Origin: a virus
DNA: 43,998 nt
Virus record (IMG/VR): IMGVR_UViG_3300020576_007250
Strand: one strand, 5' to 3'
The notes below the pieces were generated by a model. The model searched no databases and was not told the DNA's origin. It was given only the letters and a program-made list of their open reading frames with translations. The number at the start of each line of letters is the position of its first letter. Within the stretch, counting starts at the first letter, position 1. Positions 3,989 through 43,924 of this stretch are shown piece after piece. A program made the position numbers and the translations under genes.

Positions 3989-4297
3989 ATGACAATGGCT
4001 AACTCGACACTCAGCCTAGATATGTCTATGTCCACTCGCAACGCTGCAAACTTGCCCCATCGTCTGGAGAAGAGTACCGACTTTCAACTCCACGTCGGCC
4101 GCGGTGCTGAAAAAAATATCATCGATTTCACTGAACAAAAACTGTTACGCTATGCGGTGAAAGCTAGCGACCCACAACAGAAGTTGACATTGATGGTAAT
4201 GGTTGATGACTATCGAAATGGACACATTGCTGTTGCCTGGAAGTGCGGGAAGCCTGTGTATTTGAAAGTAACGAAAGATACTACTGGCAACGCCTGA
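3989..4297 (+). CDS. hypothetical protein
   Basis: 102-aa ORF upstream of chaperonin gene; no recognisable motif. Confidence 0.35.
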   Translation: MTMANSTLSLDMSMSTRNAANLPHRLEKSTDFQLHVGRGAEKNIIDFTEQKLLRYAVKASDPQQKLTLMVMVDDYRNGHIAVAWKCGKPVYLKVTKDTTGNA

Positions 4298-4329
4298 ACA
4301 GATCCTCATTCAGTGTGTATGATGTGCAC

Positions 4330-6681: not shown

Positions 6682-6966
6682 TCATAGGCTGTCAGAGGCA
6701 TGATTCCCAGTCACTGACTTGACAATATTCCAATTACGGCAGACAACGTGCGGCAGTGATGAAAAAGTCATTATGCGATTGTCACGAATGACAAATAATC
6801 GTATTTGATTGCCCACCATTGTAGTTGAAATAACGAATACCTGTTCGCCGACAAGTATCCAATCGCCGATTTTACCACGGACGAACTGAGATTCCCATGC
6901 ACGCATGCAATTCAATGCGATGAGCATATCACCGGGTTCAGGTAGATTAACAGTCGTTGATGACAC
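6682..6966 (-). CDS. PGDxV-family small protein
   Basis: PEPGDMLIAL ... WILVGEQVFVI. Confidence 0.4.
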   Translation of the reverse strand: MSSTTVNLPEPGDMLIALNCMRAWESQFVRGKIGDWILVGEQVFVISTTMVGNQIRLFVIRDNRIMTFSSLPHVVCRNWNIVKSVTGNHASDSL

Positions 6967-7159
6967 GGCAAATACTTCCCAATTCGTGCTTTTCTTTTTC
7001 GAAATTTATGATTCGATTATCATGAAGCAGTTGTAATCTGATCACTGTCCAAGTGCCAGAATAACTTTGTTCGCGAACAGAGATCACAAGGTATATCTGT
7101 GATGTTCTTTCGTGTTGAAGCCACACTATGTCTCCTGGATGGGCCGGAAGATTCATCAT
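6947..7159 (-). CDS. PGDxV-family small protein
   Basis: HPGDIVWLQHE ... IYLVISV; ATGA coupling with upstream gene at 7156-7159. Confidence 0.4.
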   Translation of the reverse strand: MMNLPAHPGDIVWLQHERTSQIYLVISVREQSYSGTWTVIRLQLLHDNRIINFEKEKHELGSICRVINDC

Positions 7160-7919: not shown

Positions 7920-7928
7920 GCATTGACT

Positions 7929-30618: not shown

Positions 30619-30738
30619 GGTCTTTAATTTACCACGCTCTCGAGGGCAATTGCACCGGTTTGGGAGAACGATAAAAAGATGATTTCGATGGTGAATTTGA
30701 GTGCAGATTCATTGCACACGCCGTGAAGACAATGTATC

Positions 30739-31301: not shown

Positions 31302-31559
31302 ATGAAGATTGATGCTTTCAAACCAGTACTTCCAGGAGACCTGGTGCACACCAATTCTTCACAGACCAGATCAGCGTCAATCACAAACGTGCCAATCGCC
31401 AGAATGTCTGGCCAACCTGAGTCATTGGGATTCTTGGACAGTGATGAAGTCGCCATCGTTATTAATGTTGATGATGAATCTGAAGAGACACTCGTGCTTA
31501 CCTCGACAGGAATCCTCGGATGGATTTACACAGTGGCACTACAGCGGGTGACAGGATGA
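31302..31559 (+). CDS. array member 3
   Basis: LPGDLVHT ... VAIVINV ... TGILGWIY ... RVTG. Confidence 0.55.
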   Translation: MKIDAFKPVLPGDLVHTNSSQTRSASITNVPIARMSGQPESLGFLDSDEVAIVINVDDESEETLVLTSTGILGWIYTVALQRVTG

Positions 31560-31813
31560 AAACTTCTGTCTTTAAACCTGGTGACTTAGTCAGACGTGTA
31601 AATGGCGTGTATCACAGCAAGTTACAAATCTTAAGGCAACCACGATCGAAAGGATTCAGCGTTCCTGTAGGAAGACTCATGATTGATGAAATAGCAATGA
31701 TCATTGGGCATGATGACGAAGCCAATGAATCACTGATCATCGCGACGACATACATCGGTTCTGCAGTGTTAGGCTGGATTCGCACCGATGTCATAGAACG
31801 GGTGACAGAATGA
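31556..31813 (+). CDS. array member 4
   Basis: ATGA coupling at 31556-31559; FKPGDLVRRV ... IAMIIGH ... SAVLGWI ... RVTE. Confidence 0.55.
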   Translation: MKTSVFKPGDLVRRVNGVYHSKLQILRQPRSKGFSVPVGRLMIDEIAMIIGHDDEANESLIIATTYIGSAVLGWIRTDVIERVTE

Positions 31814-32064
31814 AACATTGTGTTTTCAAACCGGGCGATCTGATCGCTGGTTCTGTCTTTCGTGTGGCACCACCGGAAATTTCCGCATGTTACGGGAGGA
31901 TAAATGAAAACAACAAACGCATCGGTCAATTGAGCAAAGACAGTGTTGCGCTCGTTCTATGCACCATTCCAGAACGCGAAGACAATGATGAAGAGGCCAT
32001 GATATTGACGTCTGATCACACGATCGGTTGGATAAGCGCTTTTGGAATAGAGCGGGTTACATGA
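31810..32064 (+). CDS. array member 5
   Basis: ATGA coupling; FKPGDLIAGS ... VALVLCT ... HTIGWI ... RVT. Confidence 0.55.
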   Translation: MKHCVFKPGDLIAGSVFRVAPPEISACYGRINENNKRIGQLSKDSVALVLCTIPEREDNDEEAMILTSDHTIGWISAFGIERVT

Positions 32065-32306
32065 AGAACGAATTTCTATGTGCTCCCGGTGACATGATCA
32101 CGGTTCCCATAGGACCGAGTTACATGTTGACAGCACGTCCCGGAGGAATCAATGGAACTACAAATCCATGCGTCGGCCATGCGGTGTTAAAAGAATTGGC
32201 GATCGTCATTTGTCGTGATGATAAAACCAGTGACCTATTGATCATGACAGGTTCGTGCAATTTGGGCTGGATTCGATCATGGGTGATTCAACGGGTAATA
32301 AGATGA
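32061..32306 (+). CDS. array member 6
   Basis: ATGA coupling; CAPGDMITV ... LAIVICR ... CNLGWI ... RVIR. Confidence 0.55.
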   Translation: MKNEFLCAPGDMITVPIGPSYMLTARPGGINGTTNPCVGHAVLKELAIVICRDDKTSDLLIMTGSCNLGWIRSWVIQRVIR

Positions 32307-32551
32307 AAACATTTCTACCGGGCGACATGATACGCTACGTCGGGCGATGGAAACATGACTATACGACAATCATGCCAGATCCATTGTCAGCTAACATTAC
32401 CACGACTAGAAACTATGCGAACGACCTGTTAACCAGTGAAATCTCAATCGTTATTTGTCGTCATGAATACACAGGAAACTTATTCATCATGAATTCCAGA
32501 TTAGTGTTGGGATGGATTGAGCCTACACGTATGATACGAGTGCATGAATGA
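32303..32551 (+). CDS. array member 7
   Basis: ATGA coupling; FLPGDMIRYV ... ISIVICR ... LVLGWI ... RVHE. Confidence 0.55.
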   Translation: MKTFLPGDMIRYVGRWKHDYTTIMPDPLSANITTTRNYANDLLTSEISIVICRHEYTGNLFIMNSRLVLGWIEPTRMIRVHE

Positions 32552-32835
32552 ACGCATTCATTCCTGGCGATTTCTTGTGTTTAGATCCGGATCATGCCAA
32601 TGATATCACAAAATCCATCGCTGTCTCTGGTATGCCGGGTGATGAATATCGCTTCAAGACATACATCGGAGGTCTTAAAGAAACTACGACCATGCTGGTT
32701 ATCTCTGGTAAAATTTTGGAACAACACTATTCACTAGTGTTGACGTCGAATGGAATGTTAGGTTGGGTACAGTCTGGTACTATGAAACGTGTGTCAGAGA
32801 GATCTCAGAATGAAAAATTCGTTCTTGCCCGGTGA
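32548..32835 (+). CDS. array member 8 (C-terminally extended)
   Basis: ATGA coupling; FIPGDFLCL ... MLVISG ... GMLGWV ... KRVSE then 11 extra residues because the normal ATGA junction is disrupted. Confidence 0.5.
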   Translation: MNAFIPGDFLCLDPDHANDITKSIAVSGMPGDEYRFKTYIGGLKETTTMLVISGKILEQHYSLVLTSNGMLGWVQSGTMKRVSERSQNEKFVLAR

Positions 32836-33027
32836 CCTCGTTCGTCTAAATCCATGTATCGGGCCAGCATCTGGAATGATTTAAATCAAATGATAGGTGA
32901 GTTCACGTCGCAGCACACTGCTATTATCATTTGCACGAGAAGTTGTGATGAAGACGTACTAGCATTGACGTCGTCAGGATTGTTAGGGTACATTCCTGTT
33001 AACAATTTAGAACGTGTGACAATATGA
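32810..33027 (+). pseudogene. array member 9, frameshifted
   Basis: MKNSFLPGDLVRLNP in one frame stops after 24 codons (TAA ~32880); family C-half (HTAIIICTR ... SGLLGYI ... ERVTI) continues in +1 frame to the ATGA junction at 33024-33027. Confidence 0.5.
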
Positions 33028-33260
33028 CACCGGGTTCTTTGGTGAAGATAGCAATTGAGGCATCGAACATCGGTCTCAGACAATATTCAACTCATTTCGA
33101 CCTGAACAACAAGTTGACTGGTTACATGACTGATAAAGACGTGGCTTTGATCGTTGGCATGCGTTGGTTTGGATACACGACGAAAGCTTTGATCGTGACG
33201 TCCAAAGGATTGTTAGGATGGACGCTCGCTGATAATTTGTGCAATGTTGGTGACGCATGA
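33024..33260 (+). CDS. array member 10
   Basis: MTPGSLVKI ... VALIVGM ... KGLLGWT. Confidence 0.5.
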   Translation: MTPGSLVKIAIEASNIGLRQYSTHFDLNNKLTGYMTDKDVALIVGMRWFGYTTKALIVTSKGLLGWTLADNLCNVGDA

Positions 33261-33502
33261 TCAAGCCCGGTGACATGGTACGAATCGATCCTGATCGAAA
33301 GATGAAGAGCACAGACTTCTTCACTGTCACTTCTCAAGCAGGAAGAATCTACGATCCGAACAATAAAATACTCGGCAAATTCATGTCAGATGACGTGGCA
33401 ATCATCATCTATGCAGACGATCATGATCAAAATGAAATGATGATACTGTCATCGACTGGGCTGTTGGGTTGGTGTTACACCACGTCGTTCGTCATCGTCT
33501 GA
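33257..33502 (+). CDS. array member 11
   Basis: ATGA coupling; IKPGDMVRI ... VAIIIYA ... TGLLGWCY. Confidence 0.55.
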   Translation: MIKPGDMVRIDPDRKMKSTDFFTVTSQAGRIYDPNNKILGKFMSDDVAIIIYADDHDQNEMMILSSTGLLGWCYTTSFVIV

Positions 33503-35809: not shown

Positions 35810-35832
35810 GATCTAGACTCTACCTCAGATCG
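35810..35832 (-). promoter_or_regulatory. conserved upstream element, copy 1
   Basis: minus-strand CGATCTGAGGTAGAGTCTAGATC then ATG. Confidence 0.5.
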
Positions 35833-35864
35833 CTGATGATTTGCACTTCGTGCAAACAATCCCT

Positions 35865-36101
35865 TCATGTCACCCGTTCCTGCCCAGGCTTGAGCACCCG
35901 TTCCAACGAGCTGGCAAAATCGTTCAGGACCTCGAGCGCTCTTGTATCGCTGGGATCGTTGCATATGATTCCGTTGGTGAGCACGTCTACCAGCGATGAC
36001 ACCCTGTTGATTGCGTGGAAGATGCGCTTGGCATCGTCAGCCTTGAGTTCGACCTTGTCGAAGTCGCCTGCCTTGCTGGGTTTGAAGTTCACGTACATCA
36101 T
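35865..36101 (-). CDS. hypothetical small protein (MMY[IV]N paralog B)
   Basis: MMYVNFKPSKAGDFDKVELKADDAKRIFHAI. Confidence 0.4.
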   Translation of the reverse strand: MMYVNFKPSKAGDFDKVELKADDAKRIFHAINRVSSLVDVLTNGIICNDPSDTRALEVLNDFASSLERVLKPGQERVT

Positions 36102-36379
36102 TTCTTTCCTCCGATGATGAGGCGCAGATGCGGCCTCGCTGGTTCGCTGGCGTTTTCTAACATGTCGAGGAAGGGTTGAACGCCTCCTCTTTGGTCGAAC
36201 TTCTCTTGAACTTTCTTTGCGCGGTCACTGATCCCCGCCAGGTGATTGAGGTGATTCTTGTGTTCATCAAAGGTTTTGCAGGAGCAGCCTCCCTCCTTCC
36301 ATGATGAGTACACGCGTTTCCATTCATCGTCCATGGTGTATCTCCAACGGCCCACGCCCCGGACACCTCTGTGAGGCAC
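36098..36379 (-). CDS. hypothetical protein (Cys/His-containing)
   Basis: 93 aa; ATGA coupling; possible start MDDEWK at 36334. Confidence 0.35.
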   Translation of the reverse strand: MPHRGVRGVGRWRYTMDDEWKRVYSSWKEGGCSCKTFDEHKNHLNHLAGISDRAKKVQEKFDQRGGVQPFLDMLENASEPARPHLRLIIGGKK

Positions 36380-36438
36380 CTCGGGGCTGTGACTGGGAAC
36401 GCGTGACTATCTTATCTTGCCGGGCTCCGTCACGCGTG

Positions 36439-37272
36439 TTATGCCGCCTCTTTCGCGGCCTCGCGGGCCGCGGCTGCGACGGTTTCATTCTCATAGTGAC
36501 CCGCCTCTTCGAGGAGGCCACCCTTGCCGCGCTGGAGGATGTAGGTCTTGCCCGTGCAACCGAACCGGTTCTTGGACACCTCGAAGAGGAGCTGACCGAA
36601 GGTCTCTGACTTCTCTTTCGTGTCCACGTAGAGTTCGGCATGGACGTCGATGGCGTGTTTGATGGTGTTGTGCCCGGCGAACTCACCGCCCTTGGTGCAC
36701 TGGCCGATGAAGATGCAGACACCGAAGTTGCGCTGCATCCAGTCCACCAACATCTCCGTGCAGTAAGTGGGCGTCTTACCCGTGGTGCCGCGGCTACGAC
36801 CGTCCTTGTCAACGTAGCGGCCGTCGTCCAGCGTCTGCAACGAGTCCTGCAGGAGGAAAATCTGCTTGCCCGGCATCGACTTCTTCACGCTGTCGAGATA
36901 ACCGAGCAGCTTGGGAAGCATGGTCTCTTCGCCGACATCGAAGTTTTCCGTGAGGCCGAGGCGTTCACAGGACATCTTCACCTGGAAGAGCGACTCCTCG
37001 CCGGTGTTATAGATGGCGTAGTGACCCATCCGGGCGAGCGCGTCTGCCGTCTGCCGGATCAAGGTGGACTTGCCTGCACCAGGACCACCGGTGAGCATCA
37101 TGGTCGTGGTGGGAGTGAACCCACCCTCGCCTTCGCCACCGAATCCAAGGGCGTCATCCATCCACTGGATACCGCTGGAGTGCTTGACTCGCAGTTCTGC
37201 CGGGACTTCGACAGAATTGATCTTCGTCCCCATCTTGAAACCGCGAGAAACATTCAATTTCATAGTCGACAT
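36439..37272 (-). CDS. RecA-superfamily ATPase, RadA/Sms-core-like (no Zn finger or Lon domain)
   Basis: SGIQWMDDALGFGG-x8-TTTMMLTGGPGAGKSTL (RadA/DnaB/KaiC-type P-loop context), Walker B IFLLQDSLQTL; 277 aa. Confidence 0.65.
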   Translation of the reverse strand: MSTMKLNVSRGFKMGTKINSVEVPAELRVKHSSGIQWMDDALGFGGEGEGGFTPTTTMMLTGGPGAGKSTLIRQTADALARMGHYAIYNTGEESLFQVKMSCERLGLTENFDVGEETMLPKLLGYLDSVKKSMPGKQIFLLQDSLQTLDDGRYVDKDGRSRGTTGKTPTYCTEMLVDWMQRNFGVCIFIGQCTKGGEFAGHNTIKHAIDVHAELYVDTKEKSETFGQLLFEVSKNRFGCTGKTYILQRGKGGLLEEAGHYENETVAAAAREAAKEAA

Positions 37273-37313
37273 CAGTGTGTCTCCTTACTTGTACAGTGTA
37301 TCATGGATTGCGG

Positions 37314-37508
37314 TTAAGATTCACTGATTACGTTGTCGATTGAGACAATTACGGTGTAACATTCGTCATCGACATTAGACAAAACGAAGTGGTCTTGCTC
37401 TTCGTCATCGCGCTCTTTGGTCGTCATGAGTTCGTCAATGATTGCTTTCGCTTGGATGACGAGCTGGCGAGCCTTTTCCAATCGAGCCTTTTCGGTATTG
37501 GTTAGCAT
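37314..37508 (-). CDS. hypothetical small acidic protein
   Basis: preceded by conserved upstream element. Confidence 0.45.
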   Translation of the reverse strand: MLTNTEKARLEKARQLVIQAKAIIDELMTTKERDDEEQDHFVLSNVDDECYTVIVSIDNVISES

Positions 37509-37530
37509 GTATCAGATCTTACCTCAGATC
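37509..37530 (-). promoter_or_regulatory. conserved upstream element, copy 2
   Basis: minus-strand GATCTGAGGTAAGATCTGATAC then ATG. Confidence 0.45.
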
Positions 37531-37738
37531 ATCTGTGACTTTCACCGTTGTTCCTGTTGAAATACACATTCACTAGCGAGATTGTGCTCGAGCTTGGTGG
37601 CTCTCCGCCAGAACCTTACAGCCCAGAGCCCCACAAGAAGCTATCGCGAGTGATAGAGACTAGTGTAACACGACGACGTCGCTCGTTGCACTGCGGGCGA
37701 GAAAAGAAACAAATTCACAGATTGGTGAAAGTCAATGG

Positions 37739-37760
37739 CGATTTGAGGTAGATTAGAACC
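37739..37760 (+). promoter_or_regulatory. conserved upstream element, copy 3 (variant)
   Basis: CGATTTGAGGTAGATTAGAACC then ATG 37761. Confidence 0.4.
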
Positions 37761-38003
37761 ATGGAAACCATCAAGAACCGGAAGATTAAGAGTGTTAAGC
37801 GCCAGACACCCAAGAGGCGAAACGTCTCAAACATTGTCTTCGATGAAGCGAAACGTTCGCTGAAGATCCGAGAAGATCAAGGGTACAAGATCACCAAAGA
37901 AATGATTGACGAAATGGTCCGTCACTATAGTGGAGGCGAGCTTTCGACTGCAAAATATAAGAGGGTCCGGCGCAAGTTGGAGATCGTCTTCGACAATGTG
38001 TAA
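37761..38003 (+). CDS. small basic protein
   Basis: 80 aa, Lys/Arg-rich (KNRKIKSVKRQTPKRRN). Confidence 0.5.
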   Translation: METIKNRKIKSVKRQTPKRRNVSNIVFDEAKRSLKIREDQGYKITKEMIDEMVRHYSGGELSTAKYKRVRRKLEIVFDNV

Positions 38004-38011
38004 CTCAACAA

Positions 38012-38033
38012 CGATCTGAGGTATAACAAGATC
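38012..38033 (+). promoter_or_regulatory. conserved upstream element, copy 4
   Basis: CGATCTGAGGTATAACAAGATC then ATG 38034. Confidence 0.5.
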
Positions 38034-38438
38034 ATGCAAACCAACGAAATCATCGGATACCGAGTGCGTTCAATTGAAGACGGCATGTACATCCACGTCC
38101 GTGAAGGCGATGGATTCAACTACTTGTCAGCAAAAGAACCGAGGCCCATCTCTCGACCAGATGCACTGCGCCGGCTAGCCGGATACTACGAGCAGAACGA
38201 TGGTGCAGAAGATGAATATGAAGTCGTCCCTGTGTATCGGGAGTACACCCCCACCCCTCTCGAGACCACGTCCAAGGAACTCGCAGGCCTGCTCACCAAC
38301 CTGACCGACCGTCATGGTCTGAAGCTTCACCTGACGCAGGAACAGATCGAACGCAAGATCGCCTACGAGCTTCAGGAGTTCGGCGCCGGCCTCTCCGAAG
38401 ACGTCTTCAAGCAACTTCAGGCGATTCGTAACACCTGA
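38034..38438 (+). CDS. hypothetical protein
   Basis: 134 aa. Confidence 0.5.
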   Translation: MQTNEIIGYRVRSIEDGMYIHVREGDGFNYLSAKEPRPISRPDALRRLAGYYEQNDGAEDEYEVVPVYREYTPTPLETTSKELAGLLTNLTDRHGLKLHLTQEQIERKIAYELQEFGAGLSEDVFKQLQAIRNT

Positions 38439-38528
38439 GCCTGAAAAAGCGGCCCACTCGTTGACCCAGGATTGACCCGGGCAACGTAGACAGGGAAACC
38501 TATGGCCTCATCGGGACAATCTCGGTGA

Positions 38529-38580
38529 GGCTTTTTGCCGTTCTCGAACCGGCGTGCTGTGAATTAAACGGCAAAAAGCC
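38529..38580. terminator. 14-bp perfect inverted repeat
   Basis: GGCTTTTTGCCGTT-N24-AACGGCAAAAAGCC between convergent genes 38034..38438(+) and 38615..38803(-). Confidence 0.4.
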
Positions 38581-38614
38581 GGGAACCCTGTCGGATCCCC
38601 GGCGTCAGCCTGTT

Positions 38615-38803
38615 TCAGGCGCCGAACTTCGAGACCAGCGCTCCGAGGATTCCCCAGAACACGACTGCAATGAAGAGGAGCAGCCACAAGGGAGCGAGGA
38701 TGTACAGCCAGGAGACGTCGACCCCCGCCAGAGAGAGTAACCCCTTGCCGATGATGAGCAAGGCCTGTAATGTACCGAGTGAACCTATGAACTTGAATCG
38801 CAT
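38615..38803 (-). CDS. small membrane protein (2 TM)
   Basis: LQALLIIGKGLLSLAGV and LYILAPLWLLLFIAVVFWGILGALV. Confidence 0.45.
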   Translation of the reverse strand: MRFKFIGSLGTLQALLIIGKGLLSLAGVDVSWLYILAPLWLLLFIAVVFWGILGALVSKFGA

Positions 38804-38822
38804 GGTGTGGGGTCTTTCTTAA

Positions 38823-38901
38823 AAGAACACGGGTCCTTTGGGACCCGTTGAACACTTCCTTGATGTCAGTAATCAGCGGGTCCCAAAGGACCCGTGTTCT
38901 T
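38823..38901. terminator. 25-bp perfect inverted repeat with internal sub-hairpins
   Basis: AAGAACACGGGTCCTTTGGGACCCG-N29-CGGGTCCCAAAGGACCCGTGTTCTT; each arm itself contains a GGGTCC/GGACCC hairpin; lies 3' of gene 38916..39182(-). Confidence 0.5.
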
Positions 38902-38915
38902 CTTTCTTGCCGGGT

Positions 38916-39182
38916 TCAGGCGGTTGCCGAAGCGCGAGGGGTGAAGGTGACCTTCTTCTCACCCCAGTTCTCGGTGACTGCCGGCTTCTTGCCGACCTTC
39001 TGGGTGACCTTGATGCGCTTCTTGCCATGGCTGGCATCGAGCACCTCGATCTTGACTTCCTTCTCGGGGTCGATGCTGGAGGCTTCCTTGCCCGGGCCGA
39101 AGTAGACGCCGGAGAAGCAGACGATGAGGGTTCCCTTGCGAGAGTAAACGCGGCGGGGAGAGTTGCTGGAGCGCATAGCCAT
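38916..39182 (-). CDS. small basic protein
   Basis: 88 aa, Lys-rich, possible KOW-like G..I.V..G.......G pattern; weak. Confidence 0.4.
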   Translation of the reverse strand: MAMRSSNSPRRVYSRKGTLIVCFSGVYFGPGKEASSIDPEKEVKIEVLDASHGKKRIKVTQKVGKKPAVTENWGEKKVTFTPRASATA

Positions 39183-39397
39183 GATGTTTTATCCTTGATG
39201 TTGAGGCCGGGTTGTTCCTGCCTGATAAGTCTAGTTTACCACGAAGAGATCACCGTTGCACTGCGAGAAGAACGTTCAGTGTTTTTCTGAAAAATTCTGC
39301 ACGTCATCATCGTCGCTCCCCTATCAGAGATGTTGCGAGGTTAATGAATCGCATGCTGCCCTCGCGGGCGTCCCACGTCGTCTTTAAATGGCGATAT

Positions 39398-39430
39398 GAA
39401 AGGTCCCTTGCGCATAAGGGCCTTTTCATA
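39398..39430 (+). terminator. hairpin + T-run (rho-independent-like)
   Basis: GAAAGGTCCCTT-GCGCAT-AAGGGCCTTTTC followed by ATAT. Confidence 0.3.
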
Positions 39431-39539
39431 TATGAATCACTGTGCTTCTACATGACATTAGGTGGGCTTTTTGTGAAAGCCACTGGCGAACCATGTTACT
39501 GTCACCGCCATGGACAACAGGGGTCATCAGGAGGGAATC

Positions 39540-39785
39540 TCAGGCGGCCTTGACAACTTTCAGTCGACTTTTGGGATTCTGGATGACATCCTTACACAGG
39601 GCGTCGATGAATTCGGAGTCGGTCCATCCAGCCTCTCTAACGAGTTCGTCTAGCATCTTTTGGATTCTGGATGCATTGTCGGACGTTTCTTCGGTGGACA
39701 GGGCTGCTGTCCGTTTTCGGGCCTCTGCAAGGATACGCTCTTGACTCCATCGAGCCTTGAGTAGGGGTTTGAGAATGGTCTTCAT
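39540..39785 (-). CDS. hypothetical small protein
   Basis: start chosen at ATG 39785 (MKTILKPLLKARW); divergent from 40063 gene across operator-containing region. Confidence 0.35.
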   Translation of the reverse strand: MKTILKPLLKARWSQERILAEARKRTAALSTEETSDNASRIQKMLDELVREAGWTDSEFIDALCKDVIQNPKSRLKVVKAA

Positions 39786-39888
39786 AGTAATGGACCCTAT
39801 CAACTATGAATGTCAATTTGCACTTCTAAAGGCAAATGACGGTGGCCAGCCATACAAACGGGCACTCGTGGGCAAGAAGTGACCGAAA

Positions 39889-39937
39889 CTGTGACATTAA
39901 TGCACCACTAAAAAGTCGACTGTGACAAAATGTCACA
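39889..39937. promoter_or_regulatory. candidate operator: repeated TGTGACA boxes incl. perfect palindrome
   Basis: CTGTGACATT (39889-39898), CTGTGACA (39920-39927), and TGTGACA-AAA-TGTCACA perfect 7-3-7 palindrome (39921-39937) in 259-bp AT-richer divergent intergenic region. Confidence 0.4.
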
Positions 39938-40062
39938 CTTATTTGTACCAAGTTTTGTGAATTAGTAGTATTGAACCAAGTCAACAGGCGAAACGTGATA
40001 AAACAAACACACGTTGGCCGAACAATAAAAAGCAGATAAAATAGGAAGTAGGTAAGAGGAAC

Positions 40063-40710
40063 ATGGGCGAGAAGAACACGGCAGCGGCGGGAACGGATCA
40101 AAATGTGTCGGCAATCGACAAGGCAATTGCGGCGGCACAGGCCCGCAAGGCAACGAAGGTTGCTTCTGGAAATGCAACGGAGCGTTCGGCTCCTGGCGAG
40201 AAGGTCGCCAAGGCTCCGAAGATGAGCGACGAGGAGAAGGCTGCGAAGCTAGCTGCTCGAGAGGCTGAGCGCGCCGAGAAGAAGGCAGCTCGGGACATCA
40301 TCCGGGCCAACAAGATTGCTGAGCGCGATGCAAATCGCCAGCCGGCACACATGCGAAAGGTCCAGAAGGCAGCAGAGAAGCTGACCTCTCTCGGTCAGGC
40401 GGCTGAGCTCCTCTTTAATGAGGCGACCGCAAACCTCACGCAGGCTGAGCTCTCGGCGCTGGCCACCCACATCCAGCACTTCAACCGTGTCAAGGCCACG
40501 GAACGCGCACTGACCCAGAAGTTCGAGGTCGGTCAGACTGTCAACATCGTTGCCGGCGACCCCCGCTTCATTGGCAAGTCGGGCACCCTCGCGAAGGTCC
40601 AACGCATCCGCTGTTACGTGACGGTCGAGGGCTTCAACAAGCCGATTTATTTGTTTACGTCAGACGTTACGTCTGCTTCTGTAGACACTGCAGTCGCCGC
40701 AGCTTCCTGA
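40063..40710 (+). CDS. Lys/Ala-rich protein with C-terminal KOW-like domain
   Basis: N-terminal AAKK/AEKK-rich low-complexity; C-terminal FEVGQTVNIVAGDPRFIGKSGTLAKVQRIRCYVTVEG fits KOW motif (GxxVxIxxGxxxGxxGxLxxV). Confidence 0.5.
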   Translation: MGEKNTAAAGTDQNVSAIDKAIAAAQARKATKVASGNATERSAPGEKVAKAPKMSDEEKAAKLAAREAERAEKKAARDIIRANKIAERDANRQPAHMRKVQKAAEKLTSLGQAAELLFNEATANLTQAELSALATHIQHFNRVKATERALTQKFEVGQTVNIVAGDPRFIGKSGTLAKVQRIRCYVTVEGFNKPIYLFTSDVTSASVDTAVAAAS

Positions 40711-41264
40711 ATAGTACGAAAAGTTGCCCAGCGAATTTGATTCGCTTTGATAGCACCTCGTTGTCGAGCGGCTCGTAACTCTGGGTTATTGACGTATGTT
40801 TCACGTCCACTAGCGCCGATTTTAGCACGGTGTTCAACAGATAAGTGCTTGCCTTTTCCGCCAATTGACATTGCAATTCGGTGTTCAGGTGTGCACTTTC
40901 TTCCTTGAAGAGCTTGTCGAATCTTTTCACGGTGTTCTAATGATTTGGGAGTAGAGGGTCCTCCTCTTCCTCCCATGTCGCCGTTTGCGCCCCACCAATT
41001 ATCTCCACCTCTTGTGTATGTTCGATAGAGTGCAATAAATTCAACTTCTTTGTCGTATGCAATTGTTTCATCATCAGTTTCGAAGACAATTGTGCGTTGC
41101 ATTCCTCCGTACTTTTCACGAATGCTACGATAGATTGCATTTCTAGAGCGACGATCGTTGACTCGCCACTCTGTTCCTTTTCCGACGTAAAAAGGTCGAG
41201 GAGAATCTTCGCCAGTGAAATCTACATAGATAGCGAATTTATGTGTGAGAGTGATACGTTCCAT
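40647..41264 (-). CDS. GIY-YIG homing endonuclease with NUMOD3 repeats
   Basis: FAIYVDFTGEDSPRPFYVGKGT (GIY...YIG-type split motif) and C-terminal repeats EHREKIRQALQGRK / EHRIAMSIGGKGK / EHRAKIGASGR (NUMOD3-like H..KIS.A..GK); gene body ~40% GC vs ~55% flanks; 3' end overlaps 40063..40710 by 64 nt. Confidence 0.75.
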   Translation of the reverse strand: MERITLTHKFAIYVDFTGEDSPRPFYVGKGTEWRVNDRRSRNAIYRSIREKYGGMQRTIVFETDDETIAYDKEVEFIALYRTYTRGGDNWWGANGDMGGRGGPSTPKSLEHREKIRQALQGRKCTPEHRIAMSIGGKGKHLSVEHRAKIGASGRETYVNNPELRAARQRGAIKANQIRWATFRTIQEAAATAVSTEADVTSDVNK

Positions 41265-41317
41265 GTATAAAATTGTACTTCACTCACGTAGTGATGACTG
41301 TTAGTGTATTTCGACAG

Positions 41318-41339
41318 TGATCTGTGGTAGACTAGATTC
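41318..41339 (+). promoter_or_regulatory. conserved upstream element, copy 5 (variant)
   Basis: TGATCTGTGGTAGACTAGATTC then ATG 41340. Confidence 0.4.
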
Positions 41340-41588
41340 ATGAACAACAATGACTACAAGCGAGCAGCCCGTAACGCAAAGAAGCTCACGGTCATCGCTG
41401 AAGGTTTGAACTCTGCTTCCTGCTATGAGGTCGCCTCGAAGGCCCACTTCAAGGCGGACGACCTTGGCACCAAGTTTGAGACCTCGACGTCAATCGATCA
41501 CTTTCATATCGGTGATCAACTGGCGTACAAGGCTCGTGAACTCCGGCAGGGGATGAAGAAACCGAAGAAGATTTGGCTCATGGTGTAA
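41340..41588 (+). CDS. hypothetical small protein
   Basis: 82 aa. Confidence 0.5.
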   Translation: MNNNDYKRAARNAKKLTVIAEGLNSASCYEVASKAHFKADDLGTKFETSTSIDHFHIGDQLAYKARELRQGMKKPKKIWLMV

Positions 41589-41596
41589 TTCAACTG

Positions 41597-41618
41597 CGAT
41601 CTGAGGTAGACTAAGATC
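41597..41618 (+). promoter_or_regulatory. conserved upstream element, copy 6
   Basis: CGATCTGAGGTAGACTAAGATC then ATG 41619. Confidence 0.5.
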
Positions 41619-41843
41619 ATGATCCACAACCAATCGATGTTCAAGTTTCAGATTGTCAAAGACAAGTTCCGCGTGGAGCTCTGGCTTCCGGAAGGATATC
41701 GTAATTCTTGCACGGTGCGAGTACTTTCGATGAAAGAAGGGCTCACCAATGCGGTCATTCACAGCAACAACTACGAGAGTCTGGACGTTGCAAGGGAGTG
41801 TTACTTCGCAATCTTGCACGCACTGAACGTGACTGTGTCATGA
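41619..41843 (+). CDS. hypothetical small protein
   Basis: 74 aa. Confidence 0.5.
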   Translation: MIHNQSMFKFQIVKDKFRVELWLPEGYRNSCTVRVLSMKEGLTNAVIHSNNYESLDVARECYFAILHALNVTVS

Positions 41844-42190
41844 AGACGAACACATCTGAAGTGCGGAACGAACCGGGCATCATCTCAGGCAGCAAGGTGG
41901 TGATCGAAGAAGGATCGCGGCCCAAGCGAGTCGTGATGCGTGTGGAGGTGACGCCCCTGTCCAATCAATTCATCGTCCAGGTCGAGTACCTCGATGCATC
42001 GATTGTGGTCGAGCAGACGTCTTCACCCGGTATGCCCATCCAACACGTGCCGGTGCTGGTGTTCACTCACTCGTCTTACGGTGACTCGAGCTCGTTTGAA
42101 TTTGATGGTAACAGCCAGCTCAACAAGTCAAAGAAGGTGGCAGCTGAAAAGGCGCTTCGAGCGTTCAAAGAACTCGTCAGAAAGATGTAG
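41840..42190 (+). CDS. hypothetical protein
   Basis: ATGA coupling at 41840-41843 (MKTNTSEVRN...); ORF opens earlier at 41708 overlapping upstream gene. Confidence 0.45.
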   Translation: MKTNTSEVRNEPGIISGSKVVIEEGSRPKRVVMRVEVTPLSNQFIVQVEYLDASIVVEQTSSPGMPIQHVPVLVFTHSSYGDSSSFEFDGNSQLNKSKKVAAEKALRAFKELVRKM

Positions 42191-42209
42191 CAACTGTGTA
42201 ACTCGTGGT

Positions 42210-42231
42210 TGATCTGAGGTAAACTGAGATC
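42210..42231 (+). promoter_or_regulatory. conserved upstream element, copy 7
   Basis: TGATCTGAGGTAAACTGAGATC then ATG 42232. Confidence 0.5.
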
Positions 42232-42492
42232 ATGAAGACAATACTCAAACGCAAAGACGCTGCAAACTTCATCCAAGAGACGCTCCTCCTCATTGCTAAG
42301 CTCGAGGAAGGCGAGTACTCAAAGAACACGCCGGTCGAGATCGCCAACCGATTCCGCACCATCGCCAGTTCGCATGGACTCGAGGTGCCTCATACCTGCC
42401 CGGGCGATGCACACTCGAACCCTCACGTTGACAACTGCGGCATATGCATGCCTCACTGGGGTTGGGTTGCAAAAGATCTGAAGATTACTTGA
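42232..42492 (+). CDS. hypothetical small protein (Cys/His cluster)
   Basis: HTCPGDAHSNPHVDNCGICMPHW. Confidence 0.5.
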   Translation: MKTILKRKDAANFIQETLLLIAKLEEGEYSKNTPVEIANRFRTIASSHGLEVPHTCPGDAHSNPHVDNCGICMPHWGWVAKDLKIT

Positions 42493-42503
42493 AAGGGCGA
42501 ATC

Positions 42504-42698
42504 ATGAAGACCAAGAAACCAATCTGCAAATTCACTGGTAAAGATGGCAACGTGTTTTCCATCATCGCCAACGTCTCTACGTCTCTCAATCGCGAAGGCC
42601 AGAAGGCTCTGGCAAAGGAGTGGCGTGAGAAGGCGATGAACTCGAAGTCGTACGATGCCGTCCTGGCGTTGGCCTACGATTATGTCTACATCGAGTGA
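42504..42698 (+). CDS. hypothetical small protein
   Basis: MKTKKPICKF...; start at ATG 42504 (ORF opens 42444). Confidence 0.45.
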   Translation: MKTKKPICKFTGKDGNVFSIIANVSTSLNREGQKALAKEWREKAMNSKSYDAVLALAYDYVYIE

Positions 42699-42708
42699 AA
42701 GTCAACCG

Positions 42709-42730
42709 CGATCTGAGATAGGGTTAGATC
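42709..42730 (+). promoter_or_regulatory. conserved upstream element, copy 8
   Basis: CGATCTGAGATAGGGTTAGATC then ATG 42731. Confidence 0.45.
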
Positions 42731-42928
42731 ATGAACAACAACACTGCAATGAAACGCTACACTCAAAAGTTCTTTGTTGCTGACGCACAGCAGAAGCAAG
42801 AGATGACCAGCCTCTATAACGGAGCGCTCGAGGAGTTCGGTGAGACGTGCGAGGAGGAGGCGGCGCAGTATGTTCTCGACGTGATTGCGACCGCCAACAG
42901 GATGAACTCTGCGGTGGCAAAGGGGTAA
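42731..42928 (+). CDS. hypothetical small acidic protein
   Basis: 65 aa. Confidence 0.5.
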   Translation: MNNNTAMKRYTQKFFVADAQQKQEMTSLYNGALEEFGETCEEEAAQYVLDVIATANRMNSAVAKG

Positions 42929-42997
42929 CCACCAAAAGTCCGGGAAAACACTCCAAGAAGTCACTGGTGGGCAACAAAAGCCGAGTGTAAGTCAGTA

Positions 42998-43759
42998 ATG
43001 GATTGGTTTAGGATGGGATCCCTGACAGGATCCCTTTCTGTCGTTAAAAAGGAACACATGGCCAAGACATCCAAAGCACCGGTGAAACCCATTGGTCGAA
43101 TTCTTTACTCAGAGATTTACACATGGTCTCCATATGGTCTTGGCGGTGAATCCAAGTACGATCGAGTCTGCGAGTGCAAAGGTTACTCTGACGATCGTCC
43201 GTTCAGCGTGTTCCTTCACAAGGATCCTGAAGACAAGAGTCCTTGGAAGGTGTGTTATCATTGGCGCAACGAGGATGGTTACAAGCAGAAGACGGTCAAT
43301 ATTTTCGGACGTCCTGAACAACGTACTGACGAAGACACGTATCACATGACAGACATTCTGCAGGCACACGCTTCAAAGACAGCTGCACAGAAAGTAATGC
43401 GTGAGCTTGGAACAAAAAGTGTCCGTCGGATTCGCGGCAGCATGATGGAAGCGTGCGAGTCGATTCCCGATATCACAATCATGGGTAAGAAGGTCAACGA
43501 GATTCATCTGCTCGTCACCTTCAACGGGTTTACCCTCACCCTTCGAGATACATGGGATGTCGTTCAAAATCGTATTCCCATCTATATGAATGGTGCTGAG
43601 CGATGGTCAGCCAGTCACCACCCATGGGACAAGCAGAGTCTCCGTGACTTCACAGATATCATCGTCAATGCCTTCAAGGTCGGCGCGCCCGATCACATTC
43701 CTCTCACGGCATCGAAGAGTCACAGCATTTTGGTGAGTGAAAATGTCAAGCACAGTTGA
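42998..43759 (+). CDS. hypothetical protein
   Basis: 253 aa; alternative start ATG 43058 (MAKTSKAPV) with AGGA 6 nt upstream. Confidence 0.5.
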   Translation: MDWFRMGSLTGSLSVVKKEHMAKTSKAPVKPIGRILYSEIYTWSPYGLGGESKYDRVCECKGYSDDRPFSVFLHKDPEDKSPWKVCYHWRNEDGYKQKTVNIFGRPEQRTDEDTYHMTDILQAHASKTAAQKVMRELGTKSVRRIRGSMMEACESIPDITIMGKKVNEIHLLVTFNGFTLTLRDTWDVVQNRIPIYMNGAERWSASHHPWDKQSLRDFTDIIVNAFKVGAPDHIPLTASKSHSILVSENVKHS

Positions 43760-43891
43760 GGTGATCCCGACACATCGCGACTTCTTTGGTCGTGAATTGG
43801 CGATCGTACGGGTGAAGTGGAAAAACGCACTGATCAACGGAATGGACAGTGAATACTTGTCGACGCCTGACTTTTTGATCAAGCGAATGTG
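43742..43891 (+). CDS. hypothetical small protein (49 aa)
   Basis: ATG ORF below track threshold filling gap before last motif copy; overlaps upstream gene end by 18 nt. Confidence 0.25.
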
Positions 43892-43902
43892 AAAGTCGCT
43901 GT

Positions 43903-43924
43903 TGATCTGAGGTAGAGTTAGATC
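43903..43924 (+). promoter_or_regulatory. conserved upstream element, copy 9
   Basis: TGATCTGAGGTAGAGTTAGATC then ATG 43925. Confidence 0.5.

What the first reader, a model, noticed from the sequence alone, without database searches (positions are those of the whole stretch)
35810..43924. Conserved 22-nt hairpin-forming element GATCTGAGGTA-N6-AGATC immediately preceding the ATG of at least 9 genes
Nine genes carry a near-identical element ending 0-1 nt before the start codon: 35612(-), 37314(-), 37761, 38034, 41340, 41619, 42232, 42731 and 43925. Its consensus is (C/T)GATCTGAGGTA(G/A)A(C/G)T(T/A)AGATC. GATCT and AGATC are reverse complements, so the element can form a 5-7-bp stem with GAGGTA in the loop and the ATG at the stem base. 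It contains two Dam-type GATC sites. A weaker copy precedes the lipoprotein gene at 7920. Possible roles are a phage early or middle promoter or TSS, a ribosome-binding structure exposing a GAGGT Shine-Dalgarno-like sequence, or an endoribonuclease processing site of the RegB type. The GATC pair may also make expression depend on methylation state.
Basis: seen in the sequence. Interest (0 to 1): 0.7.

Follow-up and report, generated by a model that had tools for sequence, protein, structure and literature searches.

The report
Phage promoter cassette abutting start codons
A ~36-base sequence repeated directly in front of many small genes of an uncultured phage lineage is most likely a gene-by-gene promoter that starts each messenger RNA exactly at its AUG (no leader, no ribosome-binding site), not an RNA hairpin.

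Summary
Nine genes in 35.8-43.9 kb carry a near-identical element abutting their ATG. About 100 copies occur in the window plus ~15 metagenome contigs, in front of unrelated small ORFans.

When instances are defined only by outer anchors, the invariant bases are T-12 and A-11 (47/47). T-7 is 41/47, G-14 44/47 and C-1 94% (77/82). The GTGnA block starts 24 nt before T-12 (hexamer spacer 18). 'GAGG' occurs in only 57%, 12 nt from the ATG. The stem shows no convincing covariation, and its 3' arm persists when the 5' arm is lost.

That is the anatomy of a sigma70-family-type -35/-10 promoter with +1 on the A of ATG, i.e. leaderless mRNAs. Leadered versions support this: orthologous ATPase genes in three phages have the same bipartite element 22-75 nt upstream, and two of those leaders carry a canonical AAGGAG-N7/8-ATG.

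The genome is otherwise SD-poor and uses ATGA overlaps. The cassette also closes all three reading frames of the upstream gene.

Verdict: a lineage-specific promoter/leaderless-start cassette. It is a new variant of known kinds (PeSL, SAS/ESAS, leaderless promoters). TSS mapping is still needed.

The parts
37725..37760 (+). Element copy abutting ATG 37761 (80-aa ORFan): GTGAAA-N18-TAGATT-N6-ATG. It is one of a divergent pair with the 37508(-) copy.
37998..38033 (+). Element copy abutting ATG 38034 (134 aa): GTGTAA-N18-TATAAC-N6-ATG. The TAA inside the upstream block is the stop codon of the upstream gene (37761-38003).
41304..41339 (+). Element copy abutting ATG 41340 (82 aa): GTGTAT-N18-TAGACT-N6-ATG, with TGG giving TGnTAnnnT. 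It forms the left boundary of a strain-variable cassette.
41583..41618 (+). Element copy abutting ATG 41619 (74 aa). The TAA of the upstream block is the stop of gene 41340-41588.
42196..42231 (+). Element copy abutting ATG 42232 (86 aa). Orthologues in L006, L021 and L022 also carry the element.
42695..42730 (+). Element copy abutting ATG 42731 (65 aa); GATA variant at -14..-11.
43889..43924 (+). Element copy abutting ATG 43925 (the gene runs off the window). The array continues in strain loci L022/L023 with 6 more copies in L022.
35810..35846 (-). Element copy abutting ATG 35809 (65 aa), with a 7-nt discriminator (CTAGATC).
37509..37545 (-). Element copy abutting ATG 37508 (64 aa): -10 TAAGAT with a 7-nt discriminator CTGATAC. 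The 3' GATC arm is displaced.
30619..30655 (-). Degenerate copy abutting ATG 30618 (220 aa): GTGCAA-N18-TAAATT-N7-ATG. It has a TGG extended -10 and no GATC arms.
37295..37324 (-). Leadered copy of the bipartite part (GTGAAT-N18-TGA-TACACT), 22 nt upstream of ATG 37272 of the KaiC/RecA-like ATPase. The leader carries AAGGAG-N8-ATG within 37270-37286.
39233..39261 (-). Leadered copy (GTGCAA-N17-TGG-TAAACT) ~45 nt upstream of ATG 39182 (88 aa). The leader contains TATCAGGCAGG (39217-39227), conserved with L021, and an AAGGA.

Best explanation
The element is a class-specific promoter built as a compact gene-start cassette.

- GTGnAAnTC (-36..-28) plays the role of a -35-type recognition block.
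- 18 bp downstream lies a -10 hexamer TAGAnT (-12..-7), preceded by G-14/G-13 (T-15 in a fifth of copies, giving TGnTAnnnT).
- After a 6-nt (5-7) discriminator ending in C comes the A of the ATG.

An RNA polymerase holoenzyme of the sigma70 family, either the host's or one re-targeted by a phage sigma or activator that reads the unusual -35 block, would therefore start transcription on or within one base of the A. This gives leaderless mRNAs whose 5'-terminal AUG is translated without a Shine-Dalgarno.

Leaderless translation needs the AUG at the 5' end, so each ORF needs its own copy. That explains the one-element-per-gene arrays. Genes without a copy are joined to the preceding gene by ATGA overlaps.

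The cassette also contains stop codons in all three frames, so any upstream ORF ends inside it. Its first four codons are A-rich.

Shown: anatomy, conservation pattern, spacing, gene association, leadered variants. Inferred: promoter activity, TSS position, leaderless translation, the identity of the sigma or activator, and the temporal class (probably early or middle, given the small ORFans plus Endo VII and an ATPase).
For: 1. Bipartite element at fixed spacing. GTGnA-N17-G[GA]TA gives 101 hits, against 1-20 at other spacings and ~7 by chance. Starting from the downstream half alone, GTGnA starts exactly 24 nt before T-12 in nearly all of 82 instances, including copies lacking the GATCT arm.
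2. With only outer anchors fixed, T-12 and A-11 are 47/47, T-7 41/47, TAnnnT 87% and G-14 44/47. Position -15 is A34/T9/G4. Variant hexamers stay within -10 space: TATAGT, TATAAC, TAAACT, TACACT.
3. ATG lies 5-7 nt after the hexamer in 89/101 (66 at exactly 6), and C-1 is 77/82. This is the geometry seen upstream of mapped leaderless TSSs in mycobacteria (PMC4633059).
4. There are 89 ATG and no GTG/TTG starts. Leaderless initiation needs a 5' ATG/GTG.
5. Leadered versions: ATPase orthologues in the window, L021 and L009 all have GTG(A/T)A(A/T)-N18-TGn-TA(C/G)(A/T)(C/A)T 22-75 nt upstream, and the window and L009 leaders carry AAGGAG-N7/8-ATG. A second orthologous pair behaves likewise.
6. The genome is SD-poor (15/81 genes vs ~10% background). 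Other genes show TAnnnT at -12 (5/81 vs 0.67 expected; e.g. TGATATAAT-N6-ATG at 14499). ~33 ATGA overlaps join long open frames.
7. Driven genes are unrelated ORFans (83 proteins in 64 clusters, no Pfam/PHROG hits), so the conservation is regulatory and not paralogy.
8. A divergent pair sits head-to-head at 37509-37760. The class is confined to 30.6-44 kb of the window.
9. The A-rich +4..+15 is specific to element genes (0.45 vs 0.33, p=1e-6).
Against: - No transcript data exist. TSS position and promoter activity are inferred from sequence only.
- The -35-like block GTGnAA matches TTGACA at only 3-4 of 6 positions, and the generic sigma70 scan flags none of the copies in this register (its one overlapping hit, at 41311-41338, uses a different -35 and hexamer). 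The responsible sigma or activator is unknown, and none was found in the fetched DNA.
- The strongly conserved GATCTGAGG in the spacer and AGATC in the discriminator are not explained by a plain sigma70 promoter.
- A sister lineage (L002/L015/L020) has G rather than T at the -7-equivalent position (TAnAAG).
- GAGG at -16..-13 is still the majority state and could act as an SD on read-through transcripts.
- Upstream ORFs end inside the element in ~70/89 cases, which also fits translational coupling.
- The hairpin test is marginal rather than flatly negative (16/500).
Confidence: 0.6

Rival explanations
1. Translation-initiation or intercistronic junction element. The region -21..-1 is transcribed, either from a promoter that is only the GTGnAAnTC block (for example for a phage-encoded RNA polymerase) or from far-upstream promoters. 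It acts on the mRNA: GAGGT serves as a distant Shine-Dalgarno, or as a tether for termination-reinitiation after the upstream ORF stops inside the element.
For: - The element abuts the ATG of every gene in the arrays.
- GAGG is the majority state (27/47).
- Upstream ORFs run into the element in 88/89 cases and stop inside it in ~70.
- A at -3 and A-rich early codons are present.
- It is phenomenologically like the SAS motifs of Cluster K mycobacteriophages, which were proposed to act in translation initiation (PMC3203893).
Against: - The invariant bases are T-12/A-11, not the GAGG. 43% of copies lack GAGG and have GTGG, ATGG or AAGG instead.
- GAGG-to-ATG spacing is 12 nt, whereas genuine leaders in the same lineage use AAGGAG at 7-8 nt.
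- T-7 and the fixed 18-bp spacing to the far block at -36 have no role in this model.
- Nothing is conserved upstream of -38 that could be a separate promoter.
- The same bipartite part occurs detached from the ATG.
Confidence: 0.2
2. RNA (or DNA) hairpin GAUCU/AGAUC that presents GAGGUA in its loop with the AUG at the stem base, acting as a ribosome-binding structure, a stabiliser, or a RegB/RNase processing site.
For: - The inverted repeat exists in the consensus.
- The -23..+4 RNA folds at a mean of -4.6 kcal/mol, z about -1.5 against shuffles.
- There is a marginal excess of paired cells (77.1 vs 75.0%, 16/500 shuffles).
- The 37508 copy keeps a GATCT/AGATC pair in another register.
Against: - None of the five pairs covaries beyond shuffles (only -18:-4 is nominal at 71/2000, uncorrected), and the middle pair is broken in 26/56 copies.
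- Only 27/61 copies have all 5 pairs. The 3' arm keeps ~4/5 matches when the 5' arm has 0-2.
- RNAalifold predicts no consensus structure, and there is no Rfam match.
- In L018 the GATCT pairs with an upstream AGATC instead.
- If transcription starts at the ATG, the hairpin is not in the mRNA.
- GGAG, the RegB target as I recall it, is absent from the consensus.
Confidence: 0.05
3. Layered regulation on the promoter. In this reading the palindrome GATCT-N11-AGATC, centred on A-11, is an operator for a phage regulator. Alternatively, the two GATC sites make promoter activity depend on Dam-type methylation state, so incoming and replicated DNA would behave differently. This is not exclusive of the best explanation.
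For: - Spacer and discriminator bases are conserved beyond what sigma contacts would need.
- Both arms are conserved for sequence without covariation, as expected of protein half-sites.
- The palindrome overlaps the -10.
Against: - Only 29/82 copies have both GATC sites (5' site 35/82, 3' site 57/82).
- The half-site centres are 16 bp apart (~1.5 turns), which is awkward for a simple dimer (inference).
- GATC is neither enriched nor avoided genome-wide (274 vs ~300 expected).
- No methyltransferase or regulator was identified in the fetched DNA.
Confidence: 0.15
4. The repeated cassette mainly matters as a recombination substrate that shuffles ORFan modules between phages, as PeSLs do, with expression signals as a by-product.
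For: - Between strains, window 41351-41842 is replaced by unrelated genes in L022/L026, and the left boundary lies at the element.
- L007 carries a 575-bp deletion relative to L011 whose left breakpoint is inside an element's -10.
- The arrays are ORFan-rich, and the all-frame stops make the cassette a portable junction.
Against: - There are only two events, and in both the other breakpoint is not in an element.
- Recombination would not by itself explain the position-specific -10/-35-like conservation or the strict ATG spacing.
Confidence: 0.12

Closest known systems
PeSL / PmSL cassettes of T4-like phages (promoter-early stem-loop; PMC2839356, PMC4122927)
   Same: - Short, highly conserved, repeated promoter cassettes in front of small ORFans.
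- Confined to plastic, non-structural regions.
- Lineage-specific promoter consensus; associated with indels between close strains.
- The PmSL variant replaces -35 by an activator (Mot) box plus a -10.
   Different: - PeSLs are stem-loop, then sigma70 -35/N17/-10, then a Shine-Dalgarno and start codon.
- Here there is no room for a leader or SD, because the ATG sits at the predicted +1.
- The -35 block is GTGnAAnTC with N18.
- Only ~8-9% of copies have a hairpin, and there it encloses the -35 block rather than preceding the promoter.
Start-associated sequences (SAS/ESAS) of Cluster K mycobacteriophages (PMC3203893)
   Same: - A conserved, oriented motif just upstream of a subset of start codons.
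- Restricted to the non-structural half of the genome, with a strong ATG bias.
- The upstream gene's stop is sometimes inside the motif.
- Placed in front of unrelated gene families and conserved across subclusters.
- Associated inverted repeats lack RNA covariation.
   Different: - SAS is 13 bp (GGGATAGGAGCCC), contains AGGAG, and lies 3-7 bp from the start, in the SD position.
- This element is ~36 bp and bipartite, abuts the ATG, and has its invariant bases at T-12/A-11/T-7.
- There is no sequence similarity between the two.
Promoters of leaderless genes (Mycobacterium and other leaderless-rich bacteria, PMC4633059; lambda PRM-cI from memory)
   Same: - A -10 hexamer directly upstream of a start codon that is itself the TSS.
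- No SD in the usual position.
- ATG/GTG required at the 5' end.
   Different: - Those are ordinary host promoters of diverse sequence.
- Here a ~36-nt near-identical cassette is reiterated ~100 times in a phage lineage, with extra conserved spacer and discriminator bases and a non-canonical -35 block.
- The TSS has not been mapped here.
T4 middle promoters (MotA box at about -30 plus a sigma70 -10) and phage-sigma-dependent promoters (from memory; Mot-box PmSLs are mentioned in PMC4122927)
   Same: A canonical -10 combined with a phage-specific upstream box at fixed distance replacing the -35, which defines a temporal gene class.
   Different: - The box sequence differs (TGCTT vs GTGnAAnTC).
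- No MotA/AsiA-like or sigma gene was found in the available DNA.
- T4 middle transcripts are leadered.
Jumbo-phage promoters (phiKZ, AR9; PMC8244752, PMC5312081)
   Same: Highly conserved, phage-specific promoter consensus reiterated across a large phage genome.
   Different: - Those are AT-rich single-block motifs read by phage multisubunit RNAPs.
- Their 5'UTRs are 26-491 nt (AR9), and no leaderless transcripts were detected in phiKZ.

Membership tests
sigma70-family bipartite promoter | -10 hexamer TAnnnT with near-invariant A-11 and T-7 | tested here: met
   In the anchor-only set T-12 is 47/47, A-11 47/47, T-7 41/47 and TAnnnT 87%.
sigma70-family bipartite promoter | Second recognition block ~17+/-1 bp upstream of the -10 at fixed spacing | tested here: met
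   GTGnA-N17-G[GA]TA gives 101 hits vs 1-20 at other spacings (hexamer-to-hexamer spacer 18).
sigma70-family bipartite promoter | -35 hexamer resembling TTGACA | tested here: not met
   The consensus GTG(A/T/C)AA matches 3-4 of 6 positions. The generic sigma70 scan does not flag the copies in this register. This suggests a different sigma or an activator.
sigma70-family bipartite promoter | Extended -10 TGn at -15..-13 | tested here: inconclusive
   G-14 is 44/47, but -15 is A in 34, T in 9 and G in 4. Degenerate and leadered copies often have a full TGn.
sigma70-family bipartite promoter | Directs transcription initiation 6-8 nt downstream of the -10 | not testable with these tools
   No transcript data are available.
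Leaderless gene start | -10 hexamer ends 6+/-1 nt before the start codon | tested here: met
   89/101 copies have ATG at 5-7 nt, 66 at exactly 6.
Leaderless gene start | Start codon restricted to ATG/GTG | tested here: met
   All 89 such copies have ATG at the start position; none has GTG or TTG. The criterion comes from PMC4633059.
Leaderless gene start | Mapped TSS coincides with the start codon | not testable with these tools
   Needs 5'-end mapping.
Shine-Dalgarno ribosome-binding site | Conserved GGAGG-type core | tested here: not met
   GAGG is present in only 27/47 (57%) of copies, and -15 is the weakest position of the block.
Shine-Dalgarno ribosome-binding site | Core 5-10 nt upstream of the start codon | tested here: not met
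   There are 12 nt between GAGG and the ATG. Leadered genes of the lineage have AAGGAG at 7-8 nt.
Structured RNA element (hairpin) | Base pairs maintained by compensatory change | tested here: inconclusive
   No pair is significant. The tool gives 77.1 vs 75.0% paired (16/500), within its stated false-positive range. RNAalifold predicts 0 pairs.
Known RNA families (Rfam 15) | Match at gathering threshold | tested here: not met
   There are 0 matches in the whole window.
PeSL cassette | Stem-loop immediately upstream of the promoter | tested here: not met
   Nothing is conserved upstream of -38. Only ~8-9 copies have a hairpin, and it encloses the -35 block.
PeSL cassette | SD and start codon downstream of the promoter | tested here: not met
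   The ATG lies 6 nt after the -10, which leaves no leader.
PeSL cassette | Located in ORFan-rich plastic regions and at indel boundaries | tested here: inconclusive
   The ORFan association is met. Only two indels have one boundary at an element.
SAS (Cluster K mycobacteriophages) | 13-bp GGGATAGGAGCCC 3-7 bp upstream of the start | tested here: not met
   The sequence, length and spacing all differ.
Dam-methylation-controlled promoter | GATC within the promoter core | tested here: inconclusive
   The 3' GATC is present in 57/82 copies, the 5' GATC in 35/82 and both in 29/82. GATC is not unusual genome-wide.
Dam-methylation-controlled promoter | Methylation state alters activity | not testable with these tools
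   Needs methylation calls and expression assays.

The most novel reading that the evidence does not exclude
A lineage of uncultured (probably very large) phages expresses a whole class of ORFan genes through a portable ~40-nt 'plug-and-play' cassette. The cassette terminates any upstream reading frame and recruits RNA polymerase through a phage-specific sigma or activator that reads GTGnAAnTC. It then starts a leaderless mRNA exactly at the AUG. Transcription and translation starts are thus hard-wired together gene by gene, and the cassette doubles as the junction at which genes are swapped. The sub-class with 13-19-bp hairpins presenting GTGAAA in the loop might add a structure-dependent layer, either an insulator or processing site, or cruciform-type recognition.
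Probability: 0.25. Interest if true: 0.65.

Novelty: new variant of a known kind. Interest (0 to 1): 0.45.

Why it matters
- If TSS mapping confirms it, this would be a clear sequence-defined case of a phage lineage using systematic leaderless expression: one dedicated promoter per gene for about a hundred ORFans.
- It would supply a ready-made motif for calling gene starts and a temporal gene class in uncultured large phages.
- It offers a handle, the unusual -35-type block, for finding the cognate sigma or activator.
- It provides a mechanistic alternative for enigmatic 'start-associated' motifs such as SAS/ESAS.
- The practical corollary for annotation is that in these genomes a GAGG next to a start codon should not be read as an RBS.

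Tried and rejected
- The literal N6 pattern matches only 1 copy, because the spacing is mostly N5.
- Megablast of 24 kb against GenBank phages found no match. blastn of the consensus against phages gave only chance hits. The literal string in the literature appears only in unrelated primers.
- Two motif scans of IMG/VR found nothing. The GTDB genome scan gave 27 loci, none with the bipartite element. These include a Propionibacterium multi-copy repeat and assorted MAG contigs, so no host clue emerged.
- Six of the 21 metagenome loci (L004, L005, L012, L014, L016, L017) are chance hits without the upstream block.
- Rfam and tRNA scans of the window found nothing.
- I searched for a sigma factor, RNAP subunit, methyltransferase or regulator among 50 proteins of the window and related loci. 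None was found.
- Paralogy as the cause of conservation is rejected: 83 proteins fall in 64 clusters.
- A second upstream motif (GTGT[AG] and other 5-mers) in non-element genes does not survive Bonferroni correction.
- Special GATC usage is rejected: observed counts are about as expected.
- A resemblance of TG(A/T/C)AAn to ECF-type -35 boxes (TGAAAC, TGTAAC; from memory) was considered. The hallmark AAC is not conserved (G 26, A 10, C 9 of 47 at -30), so I did not pursue it.
- One script was run with the wrong spacer and corrected.

Full report
**Observation**

The nine claimed copies exist. Printing the 45 nt upstream of each named start shows (C/T)GATCTGAGGTA..AGATC ending directly at an ATG for 37761, 38034, 41340, 41619, 42232, 42731 and 43925 (+), and for the minus-strand genes that start at 35809 and 37508.

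The 11-mer core with <=1 mismatch occurs nine times in the window, always at these starts. The literal N6 pattern matches once because the gap is N5 in most copies.

Aligning 90 nt upstream shows a second conserved block, GTG(A/T/C)AA(G/C/A/T)TC, about six bases 5' of GATCT. Nothing is conserved further upstream. The 'weaker copy' at 7919(-) shares only TAGAGT-N6-ATG.

**Context**

- The window is phage-like. It encodes a GroEL-type chaperonin with a strong PHROG match, a NinI-like phosphatase, a Gp23-like fragment, Endonuclease VII, a KaiC/RecA-like ATPase, a vault-protein-like 897-aa protein, a GH5 cellulase, and many tiny ORFs.
- It has no nucleotide-level relative among deposited phages.
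- The vault-like protein finds only uncultured phages of 462-735 kb, at ~40% identity.
- Rfam and tRNA scans of the window are empty.

**Relatives**

- A motif scan of metagenome contigs returned 21 loci. About 15 carry the whole unit, many of them several times.
- A profile search over the window and these loci gives ~90 copies, nearly always abutting an ATG.
- Exact-protein lookup found near-identical strain variants that extend ~4.4 kb beyond the window and carry six more copies.
- IMG/VR and GTDB genomes hold no member, and the string is not in the literature.

**What is conserved**

*Spacing.* A definition that ignores the GATC arms and GAGG (GTGnAn-N16-19-TAnnnn-N5-7-ATG) peaks sharply at spacer 18 and discriminator 6 (61/112). 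Defining the element without discriminator or start codon gives 101 hits against ~7 expected. Of these, 89 have ATG 5-7 nt after the hexamer (66 at exactly 6) and none has GTG/TTG. Of the 79 complete ORFs opened, 77 are >=40 aa, with a median of 85 aa.

*Position matrix.* When only the outer anchors are fixed (GTGnA at -36; RGATC-ATG), the unanchored positions with full information are T-12 and A-11 (47/47). Next come G-14 (44), G-16 (43), G-13 (41), T-7 (41) and A-31 (45). TAnnnT holds in 87%. GAGG is present in 27/47, and -15 is A34/T9/G4; T there gives TGnTAnnnT. C-1 is 77/82.

*Upstream block.* Starting from the downstream half alone, GTGnA begins exactly 24 nt before T-12 in nearly all of 82 instances, including those without GATCT. 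A sister lineage (L002/L015/L020) has CTGTAC at the same place.

**Hairpin**

- None of the five GATCT/AGATC pairs covaries beyond column shuffles (only -18:-4 is nominal at 71/2000, uncorrected). Only 27/61 copies have all five pairs. The 3' arm keeps ~4/5 matches when the 5' arm has 0-2.
- The dedicated tool gives 77.1% paired cells against 75.0% in shuffles (16/500), with the middle pair broken in 26/56 copies. That is inside its stated false-positive range.
- RNAalifold predicts no consensus pair.
- Consensus-like copies do fold modestly (mean -4.6 kcal/mol, z about -1.5).
- The inverted repeat is therefore a property of the consensus, not a demonstrably selected structure.

**Shine-Dalgarno**

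- Other genes of the window rarely have SD-like tetramers (15/81 vs ~10% of random 16-mers). They show a small peak of TAnnnT at -12 instead (5/81 vs 0.67 expected). Examples are TGATATAAT-N6-ATG at 14499 and TGTTACAAT-N6-ATG at 8258.
- About 33 ATGA overlaps join long open frames.
- In the element, GAGG lies 12 nt from the ATG.

**Leadered copies**

The ATPase orthologues of three divergent phages all carry the bipartite part at a distance from the ATG:

| Locus | Element | Distance to ATG | Leader SD |
|---|---|---|---|
| window 37295-37324(-) | GTGAAT-N18-TGA-TACACT | 22 nt | AAGGAG-N8-ATG |
| L021 | GTGTAA-N18-TGA-TACACT | ~60 nt | AAGGA-like only |
| L009 | GTGTAT-N18-TGT-TAGTAT | ~75 nt | AAGGAG-N7-ATG |

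A second orthologous pair (window 39233-39261(-) and L021 8339(-)) has GTGCAA-N17/18-TAAACT followed by a conserved leader (TATCAGGnAGG) and an SD-like AAGGA/AGAGGA.

So the bipartite part functions apart from the start codon. Where a leader exists, an SD at normal spacing appears.

**Interpretation**

The anatomy is that of a sigma70-family-type promoter: a -35-position block, an 18-bp spacer, G-14, and T-12/A-11/T-7. Its +1 falls on the A of the ATG, with C at -1, which means leaderless mRNAs. This matches the signature seen at mapped leaderless TSSs in mycobacteria: a -10 hexamer directly upstream, no SD, and a required 5' ATG/GTG (PMC4633059).

It explains several other observations:
- Every gene in an array has its own copy, because a leaderless AUG must be 5'-terminal.
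- Copy-less genes are coupled by ATGA overlaps.
- The first four codons are A-rich only in element genes (0.45 vs 0.33, p=1e-6).

The non-canonical GTGnAAnTC block, and the conserved GATCTGAGG and AGATC, suggest a dedicated sigma, activator or regulator. None was found in the DNA available.

The driven genes are unrelated ORFans (83 proteins in 64 clusters; no Pfam/PHROG hits). Paralogy therefore does not explain the conservation. The class is confined to 30.6-44 kb of the window and beyond.

**Further properties**

- Upstream same-strand ORFs run into the element in 88/89 cases, and ~70 stop inside it. They use built-in stops at -35 (TGA), -33 (TAA), -22, -17, -12 (TAG), -7 and +2 (ATGA), which close all three frames.
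- Two strain-level indels have one boundary inside an element.
- About 8-9 copies in relatives carry 9-19-bp hairpins whose loop is the GTGAAA block. This is unexplained.

**Rivals**

- A transcribed translation or reinitiation junction remains possible (about 0.2), because no TSS data exist and upstream ORFs end in the element.
- The SD-in-hairpin reading is unlikely (about 0.05).
- Operator or Dam layers, and a recombination role, are possible add-ons with weak support. Only 29/82 copies have both GATC sites, and genome-wide GATC is ordinary.

**Comparison with known systems**

- PeSL cassettes of T4-like phages share the concept but are stem-loop + sigma70 promoter + SD + ATG.
- SAS/ESAS of Cluster K mycobacteriophages share the phenomenology, but SAS is an AGGAG-containing 13-mer at SD distance.
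- phiKZ and AR9 promoters are AT-rich with long UTRs.

**Verdict**

This is a new variant of known kinds: a lineage-specific promoter/leaderless-start cassette. It is of moderate interest and needs 5'-end mapping to be settled.

Noticed in passing
L003 ~165-245(+), L010 ~875-960(-), L018 ~106-190(-), L019 ~3160-3240(-), L021 ~6908-6975(-), L009 ~2038-2125(-): A sub-class of element copies has a 9-19-bp near-perfect hairpin whose loop is the -35-like block (T)GTGAAA(G) and whose 3' arm fills the spacer up to about -14. No U-tract follows it. In L018 the 'GATCT arm' pairs with an upstream AGATC. It could be an insulator or RNase III site, or a structure-dependent promoter. None occurs in the window itself.
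   Followed up: partly
window 20028-22721 (-): An 897-aa protein has Major Vault Protein shoulder and repeat domains plus an SPFH/Band-7 domain. Its only phage homologues are in uncultured 462-735-kb phages (LR756500/1, ~40% identity).
   Followed up: partly
window 24655-27165 (-), 845-1618 (+), 4243-5985 (+): Unusual phage cargo: an 836-aa GH5 cellulase-domain protein, a TANGO2-family protein, and a GroEL-type chaperonin. The ORF just upstream of GroEL (3989-4297) has no Pfam hit.
   Followed up: partly
window 31302-33502 (+): Eight tandem paralogues of ~80-97 aa (24-46% identity), mostly joined by ATGA stop/start overlaps and without the element.
   Followed up: partly
window 41351-41842 vs L022 8858-9696 / L026: Strain-level cassette replacement. 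Two element-driven genes are replaced by diverged or unrelated ones. The left boundary of similarity lies at the element (41303-41350, 78% identity) and the right boundary at a gene junction (41843).
   Followed up: partly
L007 1027 vs L011 605-1181: L007 has a 575-bp deletion relative to L011. The left breakpoint is inside the -10 hexamer of an element (GATCTGAGGT|) and the right breakpoint is not in an element.
   Followed up: partly
window 39217-39227 (-) and L021 ~8300 (-): A leader segment TATCAGG(C/T)AGG is conserved just downstream of the leadered promoter copies of an orthologous gene pair. It may be a 5'UTR signal.
   Followed up: no
L002, L015, L020: A sister lineage keeps GATCTGAGGTA but uses CTGTACTTC in place of GTGnAAnTC, TA(C/T/G)AAG as the hexamer, and a 5-6-nt discriminator. 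The two outer blocks co-vary between lineages.
   Followed up: no
window 38578-38603 (-), 38829-38895 (both strands): Strong terminator-like hairpins, one pair bidirectional, close the convergent units after gene 38034-38438.
   Followed up: no
L021 5644-5717 (-) and 6620-6694 (-): tRNA-Lys(UUU) and tRNA-Met(CAU) genes sit inside the element array of a related phage. An element copy begins 3-4 nt after the tRNA-Lys gene.
   Followed up: no
L028-L054 (Propionibacterium acidifaciens / australiense / ruminifibrarum contigs): An unrelated multi-copy repeat, often at contig ends, reads ..GGGTGAAATGATCGTGAGGTAGAATTAGATC-ATG. That is a TAGAAT hexamer 6 nt before an ATG in an actinobacterium. It looks like a leaderless IS gene start that matches the 3' part of the element by chance.
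   Followed up: no
window 42980-43034 (+): A lone GTGTAAGTCA block lies 3 nt before the first ATG of ORF 42998-43759. A terminator-like hairpin (43015-43034) lies inside the ORF's first codons. The public gene call in strain loci L022/L023 gives this gene 248 aa, 5 residues shorter than the ORF from the first ATG, so the true start is uncertain.
   Followed up: no
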